A stretch of DNA of 64,000 nucleotides from a virus: IMG/VR virus record IMGVR_UViG_3300045012_000066, positions 32,001 to 96,000 of that record, one strand, 5' to 3'. Every line of letters begins with the position of its first letter. Position 1 is the stretch's first letter. This document shows positions 1,076-46,856 of the stretch, one piece after another. The position numbers were made by a program, and so were the translations under genes. Below the pieces are notes generated by a model. It made no database searches and had not been told where the DNA came from. It saw only the letters and a program-made list of their open reading frames with translations.

Positions 1076-1772
1076 TGAAATTCTGCGCGTAGTCAAGCAT
1101 ATCGACGAGACAGGGGATTGCACCACAGCCGCGCTTTCTAAGCTTCGAAAAACAATCCATTTCTCAGATTCCGAATTGGAGGAATTAGCGTGGAGGGCTT
1201 TTGGTGACGAGGTGAATCGAGCGCTAGTCAGCACCGCAAGAAGAGAAGTTCTCCGGCGAGAAGTAACCATCCCTCAACCGGAGGGTAACGCGCAATCAGG
1301 AGCTAAAGAAGTAAGCGCCAAAGCTGTGCATTCAGCGTCAATCCCGGTCCCTATGCCGGTAAGTTTAAGGGTTGTGAAAGTGGAACCCAAGGTGATGTCT
1401 GTGACGGTGCGGGTTTTGGAGGAGACGATGTACGACATTCGCGGTGATGAGCGAAAGTCAGTCGCCGATTTTGAAACAGACGATGTTGCGTATCTGATCG
1501 AGCGCAACCTAGCTGTCATGCGAGGTCATCAGCAGCACCAAGCGCTTTTCGAGTACATCCTAAAAACGCTTCTGGCGGCGAAGGTAAGGCGAGTGCGCGA
1601 GTTGCCTATAGAGGAACAGGAAAGGATTGGGCGCATGCTGCTTTCGGCAAAAGGGAGGAGATCAGAGCCGCCAGAGCCGCCACCACCGGATGGTGCGACA
1701 GGTGCGACGAAACTTGGACCAACGAAACAGGGTCCAACAGCGGGGCGGCGGGTTGTCGCTCAGGCTGGTTAG
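1062..1772 (+). CDS. Hypothetical phage protein
   Basis: 236-aa ORF with GGAG SD; stop TAG directly precedes the first GGY-NN array. Confidence 0.65.
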   Translation: MSLANEILRVVKHIDETGDCTTAALSKLRKTIHFSDSELEELAWRAFGDEVNRALVSTARREVLRREVTIPQPEGNAQSGAKEVSAKAVHSASIPVPMPVSLRVVKVEPKVMSVTVRVLEETMYDIRGDERKSVADFETDDVAYLIERNLAVMRGHQQHQALFEYILKTLLAAKVRRVRELPIEEQERIGRMLLSAKGRRSEPPEPPPPDGATGATKLGPTKQGPTAGRRVVAQAG

Positions 1773-1773
1773 T

Positions 1774-2004
1774 GGCAAGGCAGGCGAGGCGTGGTCGGGT
1801 CCGGCGCGGCCAAGCGCGGTATGGCATGGCACGGCAAGGCAGGTATGGCAAGGTGTGGCAAGGTGTGGTGCGGTGTGGTGCGGTGCGGCAGGCTGGGCGT
1901 GGTCGGGTAAGGTCTGGCGGGGCGCGGTCGGGCACGGCACGGCAGGTGTGGCTAGGCATGGCAATGCCCGCTGCGGCTGGGTGTGGTCGGGCAAGGCGTG
2001 GCAA
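1774..2004 (+). repeat. GGY-NN pentamer array 1 (candidate guide-RNA array)
   Basis: 43 pentamers (40 start GGC/GGT, then a variable dinucleotide) plus four 4-nt GGCA separators at 1779, 1838, 1887 and 1941. Confidence 0.92.
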
Positions 2005-2010
2005 GTAAGC

Positions 2011-2043
2011 CGGGAGGGACGTTTTTTAAAACCGTCTCTCCCG
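2011..2043 (+). terminator. Stem-loop directly after array 1
   Basis: CGGGAGGGACG (2011-2021) pairs with CGTCTCTCCCG (2033-2043), one G-U pair, A/T-rich loop. Confidence 0.6.
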
Positions 2044-2140
2044 AAAACCTCAACCCCTTAAACGGTGGCATTAAACGCGGCCCTTCTTACGACAAGCTCG
2101 TAGCGGGCGCATATTTAGACGCCACAATGAGGAAAACAAA

Positions 2141-2845
2141 ATGGCTGTTAATAATCCGAAACTGAAGCCGACAGTGGATGTAACGCAAGTAAACACTGCC
2201 GAATTAAAATCCAAAATTCCACCTGCCTCAAAAGTCATCATGATCAAGCCTCCAAGGCTGGAGGTTGTGGAATTTCCCGTGCGGGGCACAGCACCACTGG
2301 TGGTCCATCGCATGTCGGCAAAACTTAAGGCGCAGTTGAAGGCTATCGCCGAAGGTACAGCGTCGAAGGGTGCGCGAAAGGTGCGTGAACCCATGGACTC
2401 AGACGCTCTTTACATGCAAGCCCGCTACATCAGCAAGGAAGGTTGGGACGGGTTTCATGCAGGGGGAATTCGCAACGCGCTGATTTCAGCTTGCCGCTTA
2501 GTGAATTACAAGATGACGCTAGCGAAGCTCAGCCTCTTTGTGATTGCTGATGGATGGGACGCAATTGAGCCGCAGCATCCACTTGTTCGCATTTATGGCG
2601 AGCCTGTTAAGCAGGAGGATGTGGCTCGCGTGGAAACCGGTCAGCCGTATATCGCTGTGCGACCGGCGTACTACAACTGGAGTGCCAAAATTAAGCTCCA
2701 GTATGACGCCGACCAGTTCAGCGTGAACGATGTAGCAAACCTCCTTCACCGTGTCGGTAAACAGGTGGGAATCTGCGAGGGCCGTCCTGACTCAAAGCGC
2801 TCTCCCGGAGTGGGCTGGGGAACGTTCGAGCTTGTAGAGGACTAG
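2141..2845 (+). CDS. RAMP/Cas7-like RNA-binding protein (Vipr-like), flanked by GGY-NN arrays
   Basis: N-terminal strand EFPVRGTAPLVVH, helix GGIRNALISAC and C-terminal Gly-rich loop GKQVGICEGRPDSKRSPGVGWGTFELV follow the RAMP motif order; GAGGA SD. Confidence 0.75.
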   Translation: MAVNNPKLKPTVDVTQVNTAELKSKIPPASKVIMIKPPRLEVVEFPVRGTAPLVVHRMSAKLKAQLKAIAEGTASKGARKVREPMDSDALYMQARYISKEGWDGFHAGGIRNALISACRLVNYKMTLAKLSLFVIADGWDAIEPQHPLVRIYGEPVKQEDVARVETGQPYIAVRPAYYNWSAKIKLQYDADQFSVNDVANLLHRVGKQVGICEGRPDSKRSPGVGWGTFELVED

Positions 2846-2853
2846 GTTTCACT

Positions 2854-2887
2854 GGGCGGCTACTGTCTCAAAGTAGCCGCCCTTCTT
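2854..2887 (+). terminator. Stem-loop between the RAMP-like gene and array 2
   Basis: Perfect 11-bp stem GGGCGGCTACT / AGTAGCCGCCC, 7-nt loop, followed by TTCTT. Confidence 0.65.
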
Positions 2888-2891
2888 AAGA

Positions 2892-3119
2892 GGCGTAGCA
2901 GGCGCGGCATGGCGCGGTTCGGTATGACGCGGTCGGGCGCGGCAAGGCAAGGCAAGGCAGGCGTGGCGTGGCAGGTACGGTACGGCGTGGCTGGGTTTGG
3001 CCGGGTACGGTGCGGCGCGGCTTGGCATGGCAGGGCAAGGCTTGGCAAGGTTCGACGGGGCGGGGCCCGGTCTGGCGCGGCAGGTACGGCAAGGTGAGGG
3101 TAAGGCCACGGCGAGGCGT
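2892..3119 (+). repeat. GGY-NN pentamer array 2 (candidate guide-RNA array)
   Basis: Phased GGY-NN pentamers with AGCA/GGCA separators at 2897, 2956, 2970 and 3079; degenerates just before the next SD. Confidence 0.9.
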
Positions 3120-3131
3120 AAGGAGGAGTTA

Positions 3132-4418
3132 ATGAATCTCGTACAGATACAAAGAATTCCTCCGTGGCACCAATCGACGGAGTTTCTAACTAGCTGCCCG
3201 CAGCTATATGTCGAGTCGGTGATCAAGGGCCATCCGCAACCGGGCGGACTGGACTCCGCACGCGGCAAGGAAGTTCACCAGACTGGCGCTGCTTATGTTG
3301 CTTATTGCGCATTGGAACGCGTTTCACTTGATCTAGCAAAGTTCGATGAGTTAGCAGCCGGTGCCGGTCCACTCGCGGCTCGCATTCTGGCTGGGATGAG
3401 AGATTCTTATGAAGTTGACTTTACACATGTGCTGGCGACAGAACTTACCTTGTCGCTGGATGAACACTTTCTGCCGACGCAGGTGACGGATGCGATTAAG
3501 GGAACGTGCGTAGATACAGGAGAAGAGCCAGTAACCGTCGGCACGCTGGACGCGCTGTATGCATTTCCAGTGGAAGCAACGATGCGGATCGACGATTTAA
3601 AAACGCATCCGAAACCCTTTGAACCCGGCGACAAGCTGCAAGCGAAAACCTATGCCCTGTTGACGTTCATGCACTGGCAGTGGGTTGAGAAGGTTATCTT
3701 CCGCTTGATCTTCGTCCGTTATAGAAAGGTAACTCGCGAAGTTACATTTACCCGCGACCAGATACCTGATCTGATCGCAGCCGTCAAAGCTGGCCGCGAG
3801 CGGCAAATTAAAATTCACGCCGACTACGAAGCTGGCAACAAGATCGAAGCCATTGCCGGGACGCATTGCTGGTATTGCCCCCTGCTGTCGAACCTGAAGT
3901 GCCCCATCGCGCAATACAACGAGAACATGCAACTCACCATGGCGCAGCGGCTCAACTTCAATCTCTGGTACGCGCAGTTCAGCCGCAAAAATAACCAAGT
4001 GATGAGGGCATACGTGCAGGAGAGGGGTCGAGGGATCGTACTCAAGGACTACAACGGCAAGGCGTACGTCTACGACCACGTCGAAGTCGAGTCGGAGGTG
4101 TATCCGGTATTTAAATTCATCGATCAACGCATGGAGCTTCGCGATGGCGTCAATCCGACGCTGCCGATCATCGATCTGTTGATCGACTACGCGGCTGGCA
4201 ATCCGGATGACTCAGAGTGGATGAAAAACGTGGTGGTGTCGTCCACTCCGCTGAGGCGCTACCTCAAAACCAACAAGCGCAGCTTTCTCGACCAAGCGGT
4301 CGAGGATGCCGTGGTGAAAGTCCCTAAATCGCCTATACGTGTGTCGAAACCGCTCGACGCGGTGCCGGAGGCGGAGTTTGACGATGACGAAGAGTTCGAA
4401 GACGAGGAGGAATTGTAA
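3132..4418 (+). CDS. PD-(D/E)xK nuclease, Cas4/AddB-like with probable 4Fe-4S cluster
   Basis: ATG 3132 after AGGAGG SD (ORF-track start 2997 lies inside the array); SCP near N-terminus, RGKEVH, GTLD..IDDLKT, QAKTYALL, C-terminal HCWYCPLLSNLKCP. Confidence 0.8.
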   Translation: MNLVQIQRIPPWHQSTEFLTSCPQLYVESVIKGHPQPGGLDSARGKEVHQTGAAYVAYCALERVSLDLAKFDELAAGAGPLAARILAGMRDSYEVDFTHVLATELTLSLDEHFLPTQVTDAIKGTCVDTGEEPVTVGTLDALYAFPVEATMRIDDLKTHPKPFEPGDKLQAKTYALLTFMHWQWVEKVIFRLIFVRYRKVTREVTFTRDQIPDLIAAVKAGRERQIKIHADYEAGNKIEAIAGTHCWYCPLLSNLKCPIAQYNENMQLTMAQRLNFNLWYAQFSRKNNQVMRAYVQERGRGIVLKDYNGKAYVYDHVEVESEVYPVFKFIDQRMELRDGVNPTLPIIDLLIDYAAGNPDDSEWMKNVVVSSTPLRRYLKTNKRSFLDQAVEDAVVKVPKSPIRVSKPLDAVPEAEFDDDEEFEDEEEL

Positions 4419-5005: not shown

Positions 5006-5511
5006 ATGAGCAATGAAGCGGATCAGAAGAAACGCACGCCCACGGAAGTCCTAGTGCAGGCCATGGAACTGGCCGAAGAGATGGCTGAATGCGTCGTTAT
5101 TTTTCGGCTCATGAAAGACGGTCAGGGGCACAGCGGAATGGGCTGGGTGACAGAGCTTCCAGAACTGGCGCAGAAGTTCGCCTTCCTTGAAGAGGCCAAG
5201 TTAGCGATGTTTCACAAAAGCTACGGAGAGCGGGATATGCGATGAGACTCAAACTTGAATACGAAGACGACCCGGTATTTGCCACCGTCAAGTACAGAAA
5301 GAGCGACTATCGCGCACTGACATTGAAGATCAACGGCAAACCCTTCAGTGTCTGGGTAACGCTGGACCTTGTGTACCAGTTTCGCCGCGATGACCCGGAC
5401 TACATGCGAGAGATCGACAGGAGCCTCGTTGCAGCCATGGAGCGAATGCTGGAAAAGATTTTTCTGGACGCCGTTGGAGCGATCCCGGATGGAAGCGACT
5501 TAATGATATGA
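5006..5511 (+). other. Two small hypothetical CDSs (5006-5245, 5242-5511)
   Basis: Translationally coupled ORFs with SD-like sites. Confidence 0.6.
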
Positions 5512-7442
5512 AGCTGATCAAACTGCACTTGGAAAATTTCCGTATCCACAAAGACTCCACCCTGTCACTCGGAGAGAGCGCCTTCGTGGTGATTCGCGGC
5601 AGCAACTTTGCCGGGAAGTCCACTATTGGGCAAGGTCTTTCGATGTGCCTCACACCATCGACCACCGGCCTCGATGCGCAGGGCCGGGGCTACGCCTCGA
5701 AGATTAAGCGCGGCGCTACTAGGGCGGTGATCACGGCAGACTTCCAGACGAAGCGTCATCTGATCGAACGCACGGTCACGCTGAACGCCAACGCTGCGGG
5801 CCGCACACAGAAAACAGTTTGCCTGAGTGATCCAAGCTGGAAGCCGACCAAGTTTGACGACGAGATCGACCGGCAGAAGGCCGCGCTGACGGTGGTGCTG
5901 AACACCGACGCGTTCCTGCGCATGGACGAGAAAGAGCAGAAGAACCTGCTGGCTGGGCTGGCGCTTCCCAGTCACTACGACTTCGACCGGCAGATCGTCG
6001 CGGACGTGGAGGCGGTCCTCGGCGAGTGGTCTGTCAACTTCACAGGCGAACCATTCGCAGCGATCAATCTGGCATACAAGAAGCTCTTCGACGAGCGCCA
6101 GATCGTCAACCGGCAGGTGAAGGAATTCGTGATCCCGGAAGCGTTGGCGGCTCCTGAAGACGTGGACTCCAACTCGCTGCAAAGCAGGCTGGCAGAGTTA
6201 CGGGAGCAGCGTCGGGAGAAGCAGCGCGAGCGCGATCAGGCGGTAGCGGAGGCCAGCAAAGAAGAGACCGCCCGCCAGCGGGCCAAGGATAAAGTGCAGC
6301 AGGCTCTCGACGGTGAGTATCGCCGGGGGAACTCGATCCGGGACAAGCTGGTCAAAGAAGGTCAGTTGGTTTATCTGCGCAAGATCGCGGAAAGCAAGCC
6401 GGAACTGGACAGACTGATGAAGGAGCGCGAGGCGTCCTTAAGGCTGCGCAACCATTACGACATCCAGCTTAAAGCTCTGGAGGCGGTGCCATGGAACGCG
6501 AAGGAATGCCCTACGTGCGAGCAGCCGGTGGACGTGGAGAATTTAAAAAGGCTGAGCGAGAAGCTAAAGAAGGACATCCGGGAATCCAACGGAACGCTGG
6601 GCGTCGTCGAGCAGAAAATCAAAGCTCTGGGCGACGTGGATGATGCAATCGCTCTCATCGAAAGGCACGAGGCGGCGCTGAAGGAACTGGGCACGTTCGA
6701 TGAACAGGCGGAAGAGAGGAAGAAGCAGATCGAAGAGGCGGAACGCGACATTCCGGGTCCGACGCTGTTCGACTTTGCCCCCTTCAATATCAGCATCTCT
6801 GAAATCGAACTGGAGATCGAGCGGCTGTCCGGCCTGCTTCGCCCGGTGATCGTCGCGGAGGAGCGGCGCAAGGAGATCGCGATCAAGCAGGGACAGCTAG
6901 CGGTCCTGAAGCAGAAGGCAGCGACGCTGGACCGGCTGGTCAAGTACTTCGACAAGGGCGGCATCAAAGCCAAGCTCATCGGCCAGTATATTGGCGGTTT
7001 CGAGTCGAAGCTGAATGAGGTGATGGGCGCGTGGGGCTACTCCTGTGCGCTCTCGATTGAGCCGTACTCGTTCGACGTAACCAACGCCCGTCAGGATGTG
7101 ATTCCGGTGCGCGAGCTTTCCGGGGCCGAAGAGGTCATGTTCTCGCTGGCCTTCCAGTGCGCGGTGAGCCAGACGGCCAACATCGGCATGGTGGTGATCG
7201 ACGAGGTCGCCATGTTCCTGCCGGAAATCCGCCGCGTGCTGAATGCGCGACTCTACGACATGATCCAGCGCGGCTTTCTGGAGCAGGTCATTCTGCTGGT
7301 CGCGGACACCTCGGAGCAGGCATCCAGCCTGCCGGGAGCGGCCTTCTACATGGTGGAAAACGGCGAGGTGCGTGCTCTGCCAGCAAACGGTGTACGAAAG
7401 GAGACACAAAGTGAGCGACGAAACGACCAACGTATTGCCTGA
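5508..7442 (+). CDS. Rad50/SbcC-like SMC ATPase
   Basis: Walker A GSNFAGKS, long coiled coil with zinc hook CPTC, signature LSGAE, Walker B VVIDE. Confidence 0.9.
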   Translation: MKLIKLHLENFRIHKDSTLSLGESAFVVIRGSNFAGKSTIGQGLSMCLTPSTTGLDAQGRGYASKIKRGATRAVITADFQTKRHLIERTVTLNANAAGRTQKTVCLSDPSWKPTKFDDEIDRQKAALTVVLNTDAFLRMDEKEQKNLLAGLALPSHYDFDRQIVADVEAVLGEWSVNFTGEPFAAINLAYKKLFDERQIVNRQVKEFVIPEALAAPEDVDSNSLQSRLAELREQRREKQRERDQAVAEASKEETARQRAKDKVQQALDGEYRRGNSIRDKLVKEGQLVYLRKIAESKPELDRLMKEREASLRLRNHYDIQLKALEAVPWNAKECPTCEQPVDVENLKRLSEKLKKDIRESNGTLGVVEQKIKALGDVDDAIALIERHEAALKELGTFDEQAEERKKQIEEAERDIPGPTLFDFAPFNISISEIELEIERLSGLLRPVIVAEERRKEIAIKQGQLAVLKQKAATLDRLVKYFDKGGIKAKLIGQYIGGFESKLNEVMGAWGYSCALSIEPYSFDVTNARQDVIPVRELSGAEEVMFSLAFQCAVSQTANIGMVVIDEVAMFLPEIRRVLNARLYDMIQRGFLEQVILLVADTSEQASSLPGAAFYMVENGEVRALPANGVRKETQSERRNDQRIA

Positions 7443-46058: not shown

Positions 46059-46856
46059 TTATTTCTTAGTCTTTTTCTTAGCTCTTGTGACCCTTGCGAC
46101 TGGCTCCGGTTCCGGCTCTGGCTCAGGTTCTGGTTCAGGCTCTTCTTCTTCCGGCTCTTCAGGTTCCTCTGGCTCTGGCTCTTCTGGTTCCGGTTCTGGT
46201 TCCGGTTCTGGTTCTGGCTCAGCCGGTGGTTCCGGTTCAGGCTCTGGCTCAGGTTCAGGCTCCGGCTCTGGCTCAGGTTCAGGTTCTGGTTCAGGCTCAG
46301 GCTCAGGTTCAGGCTCCGGCTCTGGCTCAGGTTCAGGTTCTGGTTCAGGCTCCGGCTCAGGTTCAGGCGTTGGCGGTTCCGGTATAGGAAGCCCAGCCAG
46401 CGTCAGCAACTGGACGTATCCCTGTTGCACCATGGCGTCTAACTCTTCCTGTGTATGCTGGCCAACCCGCACGCGTTCGTCGCCGATGTCAACCGCTTCC
46501 CCCGGAGCCGCATCCCCGGATTGCATACTGGGCAAGGAAACCCAGTAGAACGTTTGTTCGTTGATGCTGATCCGCCAGATGGCGCAGTACCCAATCTCAC
46601 CGTCCGGGACATGGCCAAGCTGCATCATCCCCCATTCGTCATAGCCAGCGATATCCGCCAGCCAGCCGCGAAAGCTGGCACGCTGCATCTCCAGTTGTTC
46701 ACCGGGAGCCACACCTAGTGCTACGAGAATTGCATTGGAGTTCGGCCTGCCTTCCTCCATGCGCATGGTGGCGTCTTGAATCTTGAGCATGTCTTCGCGA
46801 CGCATTGCTTCTGCGAACTCTTCCAGTGTTGCGACCTGCTGCATATAAACCTCCAC
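46059..46856 (-). CDS. Protein with long (Pro-Glu)n tract and basic tail
   Basis: About 90 aa of EP repeats encoded by mixed 6-nt GARCCN units; GGAGG SD; ends RAKKKTKK. Confidence 0.7.

What the first reader, a model, noticed from the sequence alone, without database searches (positions are those of the whole stretch)
1779..3082. Arrays divide into guide-sized units at GGCA(GG) separators; NN strings suggest a gapped, possibly wobble-skipping target code
Seen: 4-nt GGCA units break the 5-nt phase and split array 1 into units of 11, 9, 10 and 12 pentamers (NN: GA GT CG CC GC CA GC AT AT AC AA / AT AA GT AA GT GC GT GC GC / TG GT CG AA CT GG GC CG AC AC / GT TA AT AA CC GC TG GT CG AA GT AA). 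Array 2 has units of 11, 2 and 21 pentamers, and the 21 splits into 11 + 9 at an internal GGCAGG. Inference: the separators are processing or boundary marks giving 18-24 informative nt per unit. If one target base is skipped after each NN, the units read as codon prefixes of plausible peptides (for example V-Y-I-N-P-A-C/W-V-R-K-V-K), which would make targeting blind to synonymous third-position escape. This peptide reading is weak evidence by itself.
Basis: partly seen in the sequence, partly recalled or inferred. Interest (0 to 1): 0.78.

Follow-up and report, generated by a model that had tools for sequence, protein, structure and literature searches.

The report
Phage VIPR guide-RNA arrays, staggered type

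Summary
Two + strand arrays (1774-2004 and 2892-3119) consist of GGYNN pentamers.

The gene between the arrays (2141-2845) has a Cas7-like RAMP fold. It belongs to phrog_4652, the same family as the tested Vipr protein of Escherichia phage SUSP1. The locus is therefore a VIPR system (bioRxiv 10.64898/2026.04.26.720920 and .720927). In these systems one Vipr protomer holds each GGY, and the NN pairs read double-stranded DNA while skipping every third base, usually the codon wobble base. The GGCA slip matches that paper's "staggered arrays with 1-nt overlapping vrRNAs".

In 183 pooled arrays from related phages, 805 of 907 phase breaks are GGCA, and the breaks lie 5k-1 nt apart, mostly 44-59 nt.

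My own target tests were weak. Two units gave 21/22 one-skip matches in other phages (combined p about 0.02). Only one of these, in a head-morphogenesis gene, has the skips on wobble positions.

This phage lacks the accessory gene (phrog_15946) that follows vipr in 95 of 99 related loci.

The scan has already noted VIPR loci in at least 264 other genomes. This is a new member of a known kind.

The parts
1774..2004 (+). vrRNA array 1. It has a leading GGCAA-GGCA, then four units of 11, 9, 10 and 12 GGYNN pentamers separated by 4-nt GGCA units at 1779, 1838, 1887 and 1941.
   Evidence: parse; the units are unstructured as RNA (z of 0 or above).
2012..2044 (+). Hairpin just after array 1. It may be a 3' end or terminator for the array transcript; there is no U-run.
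   Evidence: about -20 kcal/mol stem. One search found no canonical terminator.
2141..2845 (+). The vipr gene, 234 aa: a stand-alone Cas7-like RAMP protein.
   Evidence: phrog_4652, E 4.6e-14. AF2 model with pLDDT 76. All 50 listed Foldseek PDB matches are CRISPR RAMP chains, mostly Cas7/Csm3-type. VIA-align Z up to 9.9, and all 32 best rows are CRISPR RAMP chains. hhalign to SUSP1 Vipr, E 9.4e-5. SUSP1 Vipr is also phrog_4652. More than 2,700 homologues.
2854..2882 (+). Strong hairpin between the vipr stop codon and array 2.
   Evidence: -25.7 kcal/mol, z -4.4, and 0 of 200 shuffles fold as well.
2892..3119 (+). vrRNA array 2. It has units of 11, 2 and 21 pentamers with GGCA at 2956, 2970 and 3079, an in-phase GGCAG at 3029, and a degenerate tail that overlaps the ribosome-binding site of the next gene.
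2974..3028 (+). Unit A2U3a (11 NN). Under the 1-nt-skip rule it has a candidate target in another phage's head-morphogenesis gene.
   Evidence: 21/22 at L170:2356-2387. The skip bases fall on codon position 3 of L170:2055-2801(-), which matches phrog_193 (3e-40) and Pfam VG15. Empirical p for that scan is 0.059.
1783..1837 (+). Unit A1U1 (11 NN). Its candidate 1-nt-skip match in another phage is out of wobble register.
   Evidence: 21/22 at L193:1925-1894(-). The skip bases fall on codon position 2 of the likely gene 1829-2485(+). Empirical p is 0.048.

Best explanation
This is a VIPR (Viral Interference Programmable Repeat) locus of a 122-kb soil phage.

Proposed mechanism:
- The two arrays are transcribed in the same direction as vipr.
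- Vipr protomers bind the RNA one per pentamer. They grip each GGY and leave the two variable bases exposed.
- Each run of about 9-12 pentamers is one guide.
- The exposed NN pairs base-pair with one strand of double-stranded target DNA and skip every third target base. This gives an R-loop triplex that blocks transcription of a rival phage, satellite or prophage.
- The one-base-short GGCA unit breaks the 5-nt register, so one filament ends and the next begins. This makes a tail-less 'staggered' multi-guide array.

What is shown here: the repeat anatomy, the RAMP fold, family membership, co-orientation, and the clade-wide GGCA punctuation.

What is taken from the literature on homologous systems: filament assembly, the 1-nt skip, and silencing.

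What is inferred: that GGCA is the guide boundary, and what this phage's guides target.
For: Protein:
- RAMP fold with thumb hairpin and C-terminal glycine loop.
- Same PHROG family as the experimentally studied SUSP1 Vipr, and a profile alignment at E 9.4e-5.
- In that alignment SUSP1's GGY-contact residues H17, R138 and R179 align with H56, R174 and R215. These are invariant in 27 homologues.

RNA:
- The arrays are GGY/NN repeats of 9-12 per unit.
- All 103 arrays of 100 nt or more in 84 vipr-bearing loci are co-oriented with vipr.
- 75 of 120 loci fetched by the array pattern alone encode a Vipr homologue of 21-74% identity.
- No other gene next to vipr in this window is shared with those loci.

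Code:
- The published 1-nt skip rule comes from a pangenome search, in-vitro binding, GFP repression, phage defence and cryo-EM.
- Homologous guides in different loci keep NN while position 3 changes: L020/L115 14/14 NN with 4/7 Y different; L109/L121 20/20 NN with 3/10; L017/L027 15/16 NN with 4/8.
- NN composition fits sense codon positions 1-2 best of six registers (weak).
- There is no self-target in the phage's own genome, as the paper reports for its systems.
- Two 21/22 candidate targets each span exactly one 11-NN unit.

Boundaries:
- 805 of 907 phase breaks are GGCA, and there are almost no +1 breaks.
- Breaks lie 5k-1 nt apart.
- The bias extends only one pentamer to either side of the break.
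- The legend of fig. S18 describes the same arrangement.
Against: - No RNA data exist for this phage, so transcription, processing at GGCA and Vipr loading are untested here.
- The paper says staggered arrays were not among the architectures confirmed by sRNA-seq.
- The shuffled-control test of 777 pooled units against 2.5 Mb showed no enrichment at skip 0, 1, 2 or 3.
- Three of five window units scanned remotely gave nothing beyond chance.
- The other units do not converge on the two candidate target contigs.
- One candidate is out of wobble register, and the other is not a conserved motif of its family.
- A Bradyrhizobium prophage guide found only chance-level hits in 301 genomes of that genus.
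- Several pentamers are degenerate, one unit has only 2 pentamers, and unit 2 of array 1 is low-complexity, so some guides may be decayed.
- The clade's usual accessory gene is missing from this phage.
Confidence: 0.9

Rival explanations
1. The locus is a decaying or guide-less VIPR remnant. The arrays still have the repeat form, but they no longer direct silencing of any target and are kept at most as a Vipr-binding RNA.
For: - Degenerate pentamers (AGCGC, TGCCC, GCTGC, GACGC, GACGG), a 2-pentamer unit and a low-complexity unit.
- No accessory gene anywhere in the phage.
- No convincing target was found.
Against: - The vipr reading frame is intact and keeps every residue that is invariant in the 27-sequence alignment.
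- The paper notes that internal degeneracy of vrRNAs is frequent and that VIPR works without vap, with vap1 only enhancing it.
- My target searches were underpowered.
- 21 of 120 related loci also lack the accessory gene within the fetched flank.
Confidence: 0.07
2. The arrays act at the DNA or transcript level without guiding anything. For example, they could be G-rich R-loop or G-quadruplex formers, a Rho-blocking spacer, or binding sites for some other ring or filament protein of the recombination module.
For: - The arrays are G-rich on the sense strand with GG every 5 nt.
- They sit in an early/recombination module next to an exonuclease and an SbcC-like ATPase.
Against: - None of those neighbouring genes recurs in 129 related loci, while vipr does.
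- Strict pyrimidine at position 3, breaks that are only -1 (GGCA), and NN kept while Y varies are not needed for G4, R-loop or Rho effects.
- The published structures explain each letter of GGY.
Confidence: 0.02
3. The arrays are protein-coding low-complexity sequence.
For: Four of six frames are open across array 1.
Against: - The open frames follow from the low T/A content.
- The period is 5 nt, not 3.
- Arrays in relatives contain stop codons and shift position between genes.
- There is no family match.
Confidence: 0.01

Closest known systems
VIPR systems with 'staggered' vrRNA arrays (bioRxiv 10.64898/2026.04.26.720920, fig. S18 legend)
   Same: - A lone Vipr RAMP gene flanked by GGY/NN pentamer tracts.
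- Successive guides abut with a 1-nt overlap. Here that is GGCA followed by GG, which can be read as GGCAG overlapping the next GG.
- There are no tails or ribozymes between guides.
   Different: - The preprint text I could read gives no sequence consensus, unit statistics or RNA-seq for this architecture, and its figures and tables are not held, so I cannot name the type (I-VII).
- Here the break is GGCA in 89% of cases, with a GGC-A-A / GGC-R-N bias on the flanking pentamers.
- This phage lacks the clade's accessory gene.
Type II VIPR of Escherichia phage SUSP1 (KT454805.2, about 27.5-29.5 kb) and the Pseudomonas fulva prophage
   Same: - Vipr is in the same PHROG family (phrog_4652).
- The repeats are GGYNN.
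- There are arrays both upstream and downstream of vipr on the same strand.
- Guides have 9-16 repeats.
   Different: - SUSP1 guides are mostly GGT-NN, and each ends in a conserved structured 3' tail (seen). Here the repeats are about 60-80% GGC and there are no tails between units.
- SUSP1's accessory gene vap1 is phrog_5926. This clade's accessory gene is phrog_15946, and it is absent from this phage.
- The aligned pyrimidine-pocket residues differ (E71/M72 against A113/L114).
Cas7 backbone of class 1 CRISPR effectors (Csm3, Cmr4, Cas7-11, type IV Csf2)
   Same: - The RRM/RAMP fold, thumb and glycine loop.
- One protomer binds per RNA repeat, with periodic base flipping.
   Different: - The period is 5 nt with a sequence-specific GGY grip, against a 6-nt sequence-independent period.
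- The guide is non-contiguous.
- There are no CRISPR repeats, no Cas5, Cas6 or Cas10, and no adaptation genes.
- The system is phage-borne.

Membership tests
VIPR (Vipr + vrRNA) | A stand-alone minimal RAMP protein (single RRM core, thumb, glycine-rich loop) outside a CRISPR-cas context. | tested here: met
   - AF2 model.
- All 50 listed Foldseek PDB matches are CRISPR RAMP chains, mostly Cas7/Csm3/Cmr4-type.
- VIA-align wide search: Z 9.9-8.0 for Cmr, Csm, Cas7-11, type IV and type VII RAMPs.
- Invariant G223, G225, W226, G227 loop.
- No CRISPR-like repeats or Rfam hits in the window.
VIPR (Vipr + vrRNA) | Sequence relationship to an experimentally characterised Vipr. | tested here: met
   - The window protein matches phrog_4652 at 4.6e-14.
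- SUSP1 Vipr (L130:28474-29061, minus strand) matches phrog_4652 at 1.4e-96.
- hhalign of A1 against SUSP1 Vipr: E 9.4e-5, 157 columns, probability 59%.
VIPR (Vipr + vrRNA) | The GGY-contact residues of SUSP1 Vipr (H17, R138, D177, W178, R179) are conserved. | tested here: inconclusive
   - In the alignment H17, R138 and R179 pair with H56, R174 and R215, all invariant.
- D177 pairs with E213.
- W178 pairs with G214. An alternative register puts it at W226 in GVGWG.
- The model is low-confidence at 213-219.
VIPR (Vipr + vrRNA) | Tandem GGY/NN (YNNGG) pentamer tracts next to vipr on the same strand, about 9-16 repeats per guide. | tested here: met
   - units of 11, 9, 10, 12, 11 and 21 pentamers.
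- 103 of 103 arrays are co-oriented with vipr in 84 related loci.
VIPR (Vipr + vrRNA) | A vipr-accessory (vap) gene in the operon. The paper calls this typical, not obligatory. | tested here: not met
   - The clade's partner, phrog_15946, lies directly downstream of vipr in 95 of 99 loci.
- It has no match in the whole 122-kb phage at E of 1 or below.
- The adjacent exonuclease is not shared with any of 129 loci.
VIPR (Vipr + vrRNA) | Guides read natural targets with a 1-nt skip, with the skipped base usually at the codon wobble position. | tested here: inconclusive
   - No enrichment in a 2.5-Mb local set at any skip.
- Two 21/22 matches in viral contigs, with per-scan p of 0.048 and 0.059. 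One is in wobble register.
- No convergence of the other units.
- Only the 1-nt skip was scanned remotely.
VIPR (Vipr + vrRNA) | vrRNAs are expressed, processed to unit length and co-purify with Vipr. | not testable with these tools
   No transcript data are available for this metagenomic phage.
Type II VIPR (SUSP1 type) | Each guide ends in a conserved structured 3' tail, and the accessory gene is vap1 (phrog_5926). | tested here: not met
   - Units abut through a 4-nt GGCA with no tail.
- SUSP1 tails are visible.
- The two accessory proteins show no similarity to each other.
CRISPR-Cas (class 1) | A repeat-spacer array, multiple cas genes and a contiguous guide. | tested here: not met
   - No repeats of CRISPR length were found.
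- The only cas-like neighbour is a PD-(D/E)XK exonuclease (phrog_69), and it is not linked to vipr elsewhere.

The most novel reading that the evidence does not exclude
In this large, mostly soil-borne clade the one-base-short GGCA unit may be a self-contained punctuation mark. By breaking the 5-nt register it would end one Vipr filament and start the next. Long transcripts would then be parsed into many independent guides without tails, ribozymes or a Cas6-like nuclease. Such a system could also work with no accessory protein, as in this phage. This would be a guide-array processing logic that has not been shown experimentally.
Probability: 0.45. Interest if true: 0.45.

Novelty: new member of a known kind. 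Interest (0 to 1): 0.3.

Why it matters
VIPR is a newly described, minimal RNA-guided way of recognising DNA and a proposed ancestor of the CRISPR RAMP proteins. This locus adds nothing new in principle.

It does add some useful points:
- It gives a first quantitative description of the GGCA punctuation.
- It is a natural example with no accessory gene.
- It offers concrete units and one candidate target, a rival phage's head-morphogenesis gene, for testing how tail-less arrays are parsed.

Tried and rejected
**Ideas held before the fold result and then dropped**
- A TRAP-like 11-mer ring or a single-strand-annealing ring binding 11 x 5 nt. Unit sizes range from 8 to 13, and none of the recombination genes recurs.
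- R-loop or switch-region-like DNA, G-quadruplexes, an antisense Rho site, sigma-54 sites, primase sites and Chi decoys. None of these explains GGY plus breaks that are only -1.
- Coding sequence. The open frames are compositional.

**Searches that led nowhere**
- Rfam found nothing in the window.
- The consensus scan found no promoter or terminator.
- 777 pooled units against 2.5 Mb at skips 0-3, with shuffles: no enrichment.
- The window's units against the phage's own genome and all fetched loci: chance level.
- Remote 1-nt-skip scans: unit A1U4 gave 0 hits twice in viral contigs. Its 10-NN metagenome scan gave 1 hit, in a eukaryote-like low-complexity frame out of register. A1U3 gave 3 chance hits. 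A2U1 gave 69 hits and none extends.
- The idea that units 3 and 4 of array 1 tile one target, because they share the NN string TG GT CG AA with different Y letters, found no support.
- The other units do not hit the two candidate target contigs.
- The candidate site in the VG15-family gene is not a family motif.
- A Bradyrhizobium lablabi prophage guide against 301 genomes of that genus gave 3 hits against 2 control hits.

**Other limits**
- The host could not be inferred, because Vipr relatives occur in MAGs of many phyla.
- The VIPR type (I-VII) could not be assigned, because the paper's figures and tables are not held.
Full report
**1. The observation**

Reading 1400-3500 and parsing it shows two + strand tracts of GGYNN pentamers.

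Array 1 (1774-2004) is GGCAA, GGCA, 11 pentamers, GGCA, 9 pentamers, GGCA, 10 pentamers, GGCA, 12 pentamers. Array 2 (2892-3119) is 11 pentamers, GGCA, 2 pentamers, GGCA, 21 pentamers, GGCA, then a degenerate tail that runs into the AGGAGG of the next gene.

Position 3 is C or T in 68 of the 69 clean 5-nt units. Positions 4-5 vary.

A lag-5 GG scan finds no other such tract in the window or in the whole 122,463-bp phage. As RNA the units are unstructured (z of 0 or above). Strong hairpins sit after array 1 (2012-2044) and between the middle gene and array 2 (2854-2882; -25.7 kcal/mol, z -4.4).

**2. The surroundings**

All genes here are on the + strand and look like a phage early/recombination module:
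- phrog_18407 (3-677);
- two unknown genes (674-1075, 1062-1772);
- array 1;
- a 234-aa phrog_4652 protein (2141-2845);
- array 2;
- a PD-(D/E)XK exonuclease (3132-4418, phrog_69);
- a DUF3307 membrane protein;
- an SbcC-like ATPase (5508-7442).

**3. The middle gene is a RAMP**

It has more than 2,700 homologues at E of 0.001 or below, and no Pfam domain. An AlphaFold model built on 27 sequences (pLDDT 76) finds only CRISPR RAMP proteins, mostly of the Cas7 family, in two independent structure searches:
- In Foldseek against the PDB, all 50 listed matches are Csm, Cmr, Cas7-11 or Csc2 chains.
- In VIA-align against 48,161 chains, Z is 9.9 to 8.0 for Cmr-beta, Csm, gRAMP/Cas7-11, type VII and type IV RAMPs.

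The alignment has the invariant C-terminal glycine loop G223, G225, W226, G227.

**4. Arrays and gene travel together**

- Nine viral loci fetched through the protein also carry + strand GGYNN arrays with GGCA breaks, at varying intergenic positions.
Of these, 75 encode a homologue of the 234-aa protein (21-74% identity) within the fetched flank. None encodes any of the window's other neighbours.
- All 103 arrays of 100 nt or more in 84 such loci are co-oriented with the gene. 86 lie downstream and 17 upstream.

**5. The literature settles what it is**

[quoted passage not shown] It describes VIPR systems:
- They consist of a stand-alone ancestral RAMP (Vipr, about 20 kDa), usually one accessory gene (vap), and vrRNAs made of 9-16 YNNGG repeats.
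- The NN dinucleotides pair with double-stranded DNA under a '1 nt skip rule'.
- The skipped base is mostly at the codon wobble position.
- The rule was shown by a pangenome search, competitive binding, GFP repression, reprogramming and phage-defence assays.

The companion cryo-EM paper (10.64898/2026.04.26.720927) shows one protomer per repeat. Residues H17, D177, R138, W178 and a pyrimidine pocket hold G1, G2 and Y3, and the complex forms an R-loop triplex.

A third paper shows the system deciding phage-satellite competition. A fourth recovers 99 VIPR-like clusters with a period of 5.

[quoted passage not shown] S18 legend). That is what GGCA followed by GG amounts to: GGCAG sharing its last G with the next GG. 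The paper states that only the ribozyme-interspersed and single-guide layouts were confirmed by sRNA-seq.

**6. Membership tested here**

- I located the SUSP1 locus in KT454805.2. It has GGT-NN arrays with structured tails on the minus strand at about 27.5-28.0 kb and 29.1-29.3 kb.
- Its 195-aa Vipr is phrog_4652 at 1.4e-96, the same family the window protein hit.
- It aligns to the window protein's profile at E 9.4e-5 over 157 columns.
- In that alignment H17, R138 and R179 fall on H56, R174 and R215, all invariant. D177 falls on E213. W178 is ambiguous. The pyrimidine-pocket residues differ (E71/M72 against A113/L114), which may go with this clade's preference for GGC over SUSP1's GGT.
- The locus is not type II. 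There are no tails between guides, and the accessory genes are unrelated.

**7. What I can add on the punctuation**

The pooled set is 183 arrays from 130 sources.
- There are 7,832 pentamers, 907 four-letter units (805 GGCA) and only 9 six-letter units, so breaks are almost always -1.
- Distances between breaks are 5k-1 nt. The peak is 44-59 nt, with 8-11 clean pentamers between breaks most common.
- The pentamer before a break is biased to GGC-A-A and never ends in G. The pentamer after it is biased to GGC-R-N. One pentamer further out, composition is at background.
- In-phase GGCAG is not depleted inside units.

The sampling pattern contained GGCAAGGCAGG, so the share of that exact motif is somewhat inflated.

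**8. The code in this clade**

- *Local test.* 777 units against 2.5 Mb (all loci plus the phage, arrays masked), at skips 0-3 with five shuffles each, showed no enrichment. The database is far too small for this to count against the rule.
- *Self-targeting.* There is none.
- *NN composition.* It fits sense codon positions 1-2 best of six registers (Pearson 0.49, lowest KL). This is weak.
- *Homologous guides.* In different loci they keep NN while position 3 changes: L020/L115 14 of 14 NN bases with 4 of 7 Y different; L109/L121 20 of 20 NN with 3 of 10; L017/L027 15 of 16 NN with 4 of 8. Selection therefore acts on NN.
- *Remote 1-skip scans with the first 8 NN of units.*
  - Unit 2974-3028 matches L170:2356-2387 at 21 of 22 bases over exactly its 11 NN. 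The site lies inside a VG15/head-morphogenesis gene (phrog_193, 3e-40), and every skip falls on codon position 3.
  - Unit 1783-1837 matches L193 at 21 of 22 bases over its 11 NN, but the skips fall on codon position 2 of the likely gene.
  - Empirical per-scan probabilities are 0.059 and 0.048, and about 0.02 for two successes in three comparable scans.
  - No other unit hits those two contigs. The L170 site is not a family motif.
  - The other scans gave nothing beyond chance, as did a prophage guide in 301 Bradyrhizobium genomes.

I treat the L170 site as a candidate only.

**9. The accessory gene**

In 99 of 120 vipr loci a protein of about 150 aa (phrog_15946, unknown function) is on the same strand, and it lies directly downstream of vipr in 95 of them. 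The whole phage, which CheckV rates 100% complete, has no match at E of 1 or below. The Cas4-like exonuclease that follows array 2 is not a conserved partner. It is best read as the phage's recombination nuclease.

**10. Verdict**

The kind is known and this locus is a new member.

Three points remain open and modestly interesting:
- whether the GGCA slip alone parses tail-less arrays;
- how a vap-less system performs;
- what these guides target.

The scan has already noted VIPR loci in at least 264 other genomes.

Noticed in passing
L003:3636-4076, L005:3638-4120 and 97 other loci; absent from window and G000: A conserved protein of about 150 aa (phrog_15946, with motif SPLH..FEWDD..AA..RLWQAR.LI) sits directly downstream of vipr in 95 of 99 loci. 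It is probably this clade's vap gene. It shows no detectable similarity to SUSP1 vap1 (phrog_5926) and is missing from this 122-kb phage.
   Followed up: partly
window 3132-4418: A PD-(D/E)XK (Cas4/RecB-like) exonuclease whose ribosome-binding site overlaps the degenerate tail of array 2. No homologue occurs next to vipr in 129 related loci, so the adjacency looks incidental.
   Followed up: partly
window 1891-1910 and 1975-1994: Units 3 and 4 of array 1 share the NN string TG GT CG AA, while two of the four position-3 letters differ (GGCGT/GGTGT and GGTAA/GGCAA). This could reflect duplication with NN preserved, or two guides on one target. No tiled target was found.
   Followed up: partly
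window 2854-2882: A very stable hairpin (-25.7 kcal/mol, z -4.4) followed by UUCUU lies between the vipr stop codon and array 2. Array 2 may therefore need read-through or its own promoter. The sigma-70 scan found no promoter.
   Followed up: partly
L071:6723-8007; L002:4193-4857 (runs off the contig): Some relatives carry very long arrays (1,285 nt; more than 660 nt). Many arrays sit at contig ends, so these repeats probably break metagenome assemblies and array sizes are underestimated.
   Followed up: no
L020 vs L115, L109 vs L121, L017 vs L027 (array units): Guides shared between different phages keep all or nearly all NN bases, while 30-57% of position-3 letters differ and even some GG are lost in one copy.
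   Followed up: partly
window 46100-46368 and 31436-31543: Long tandem repeats with periods of 6, 18 and 54 nt (GGTTCA/GGCTCT type) and 12 and 24 nt (CTCGTCGCCTTC type). They are presumably low-complexity coding linkers in structural genes and are unrelated to the finding.
   Followed up: no
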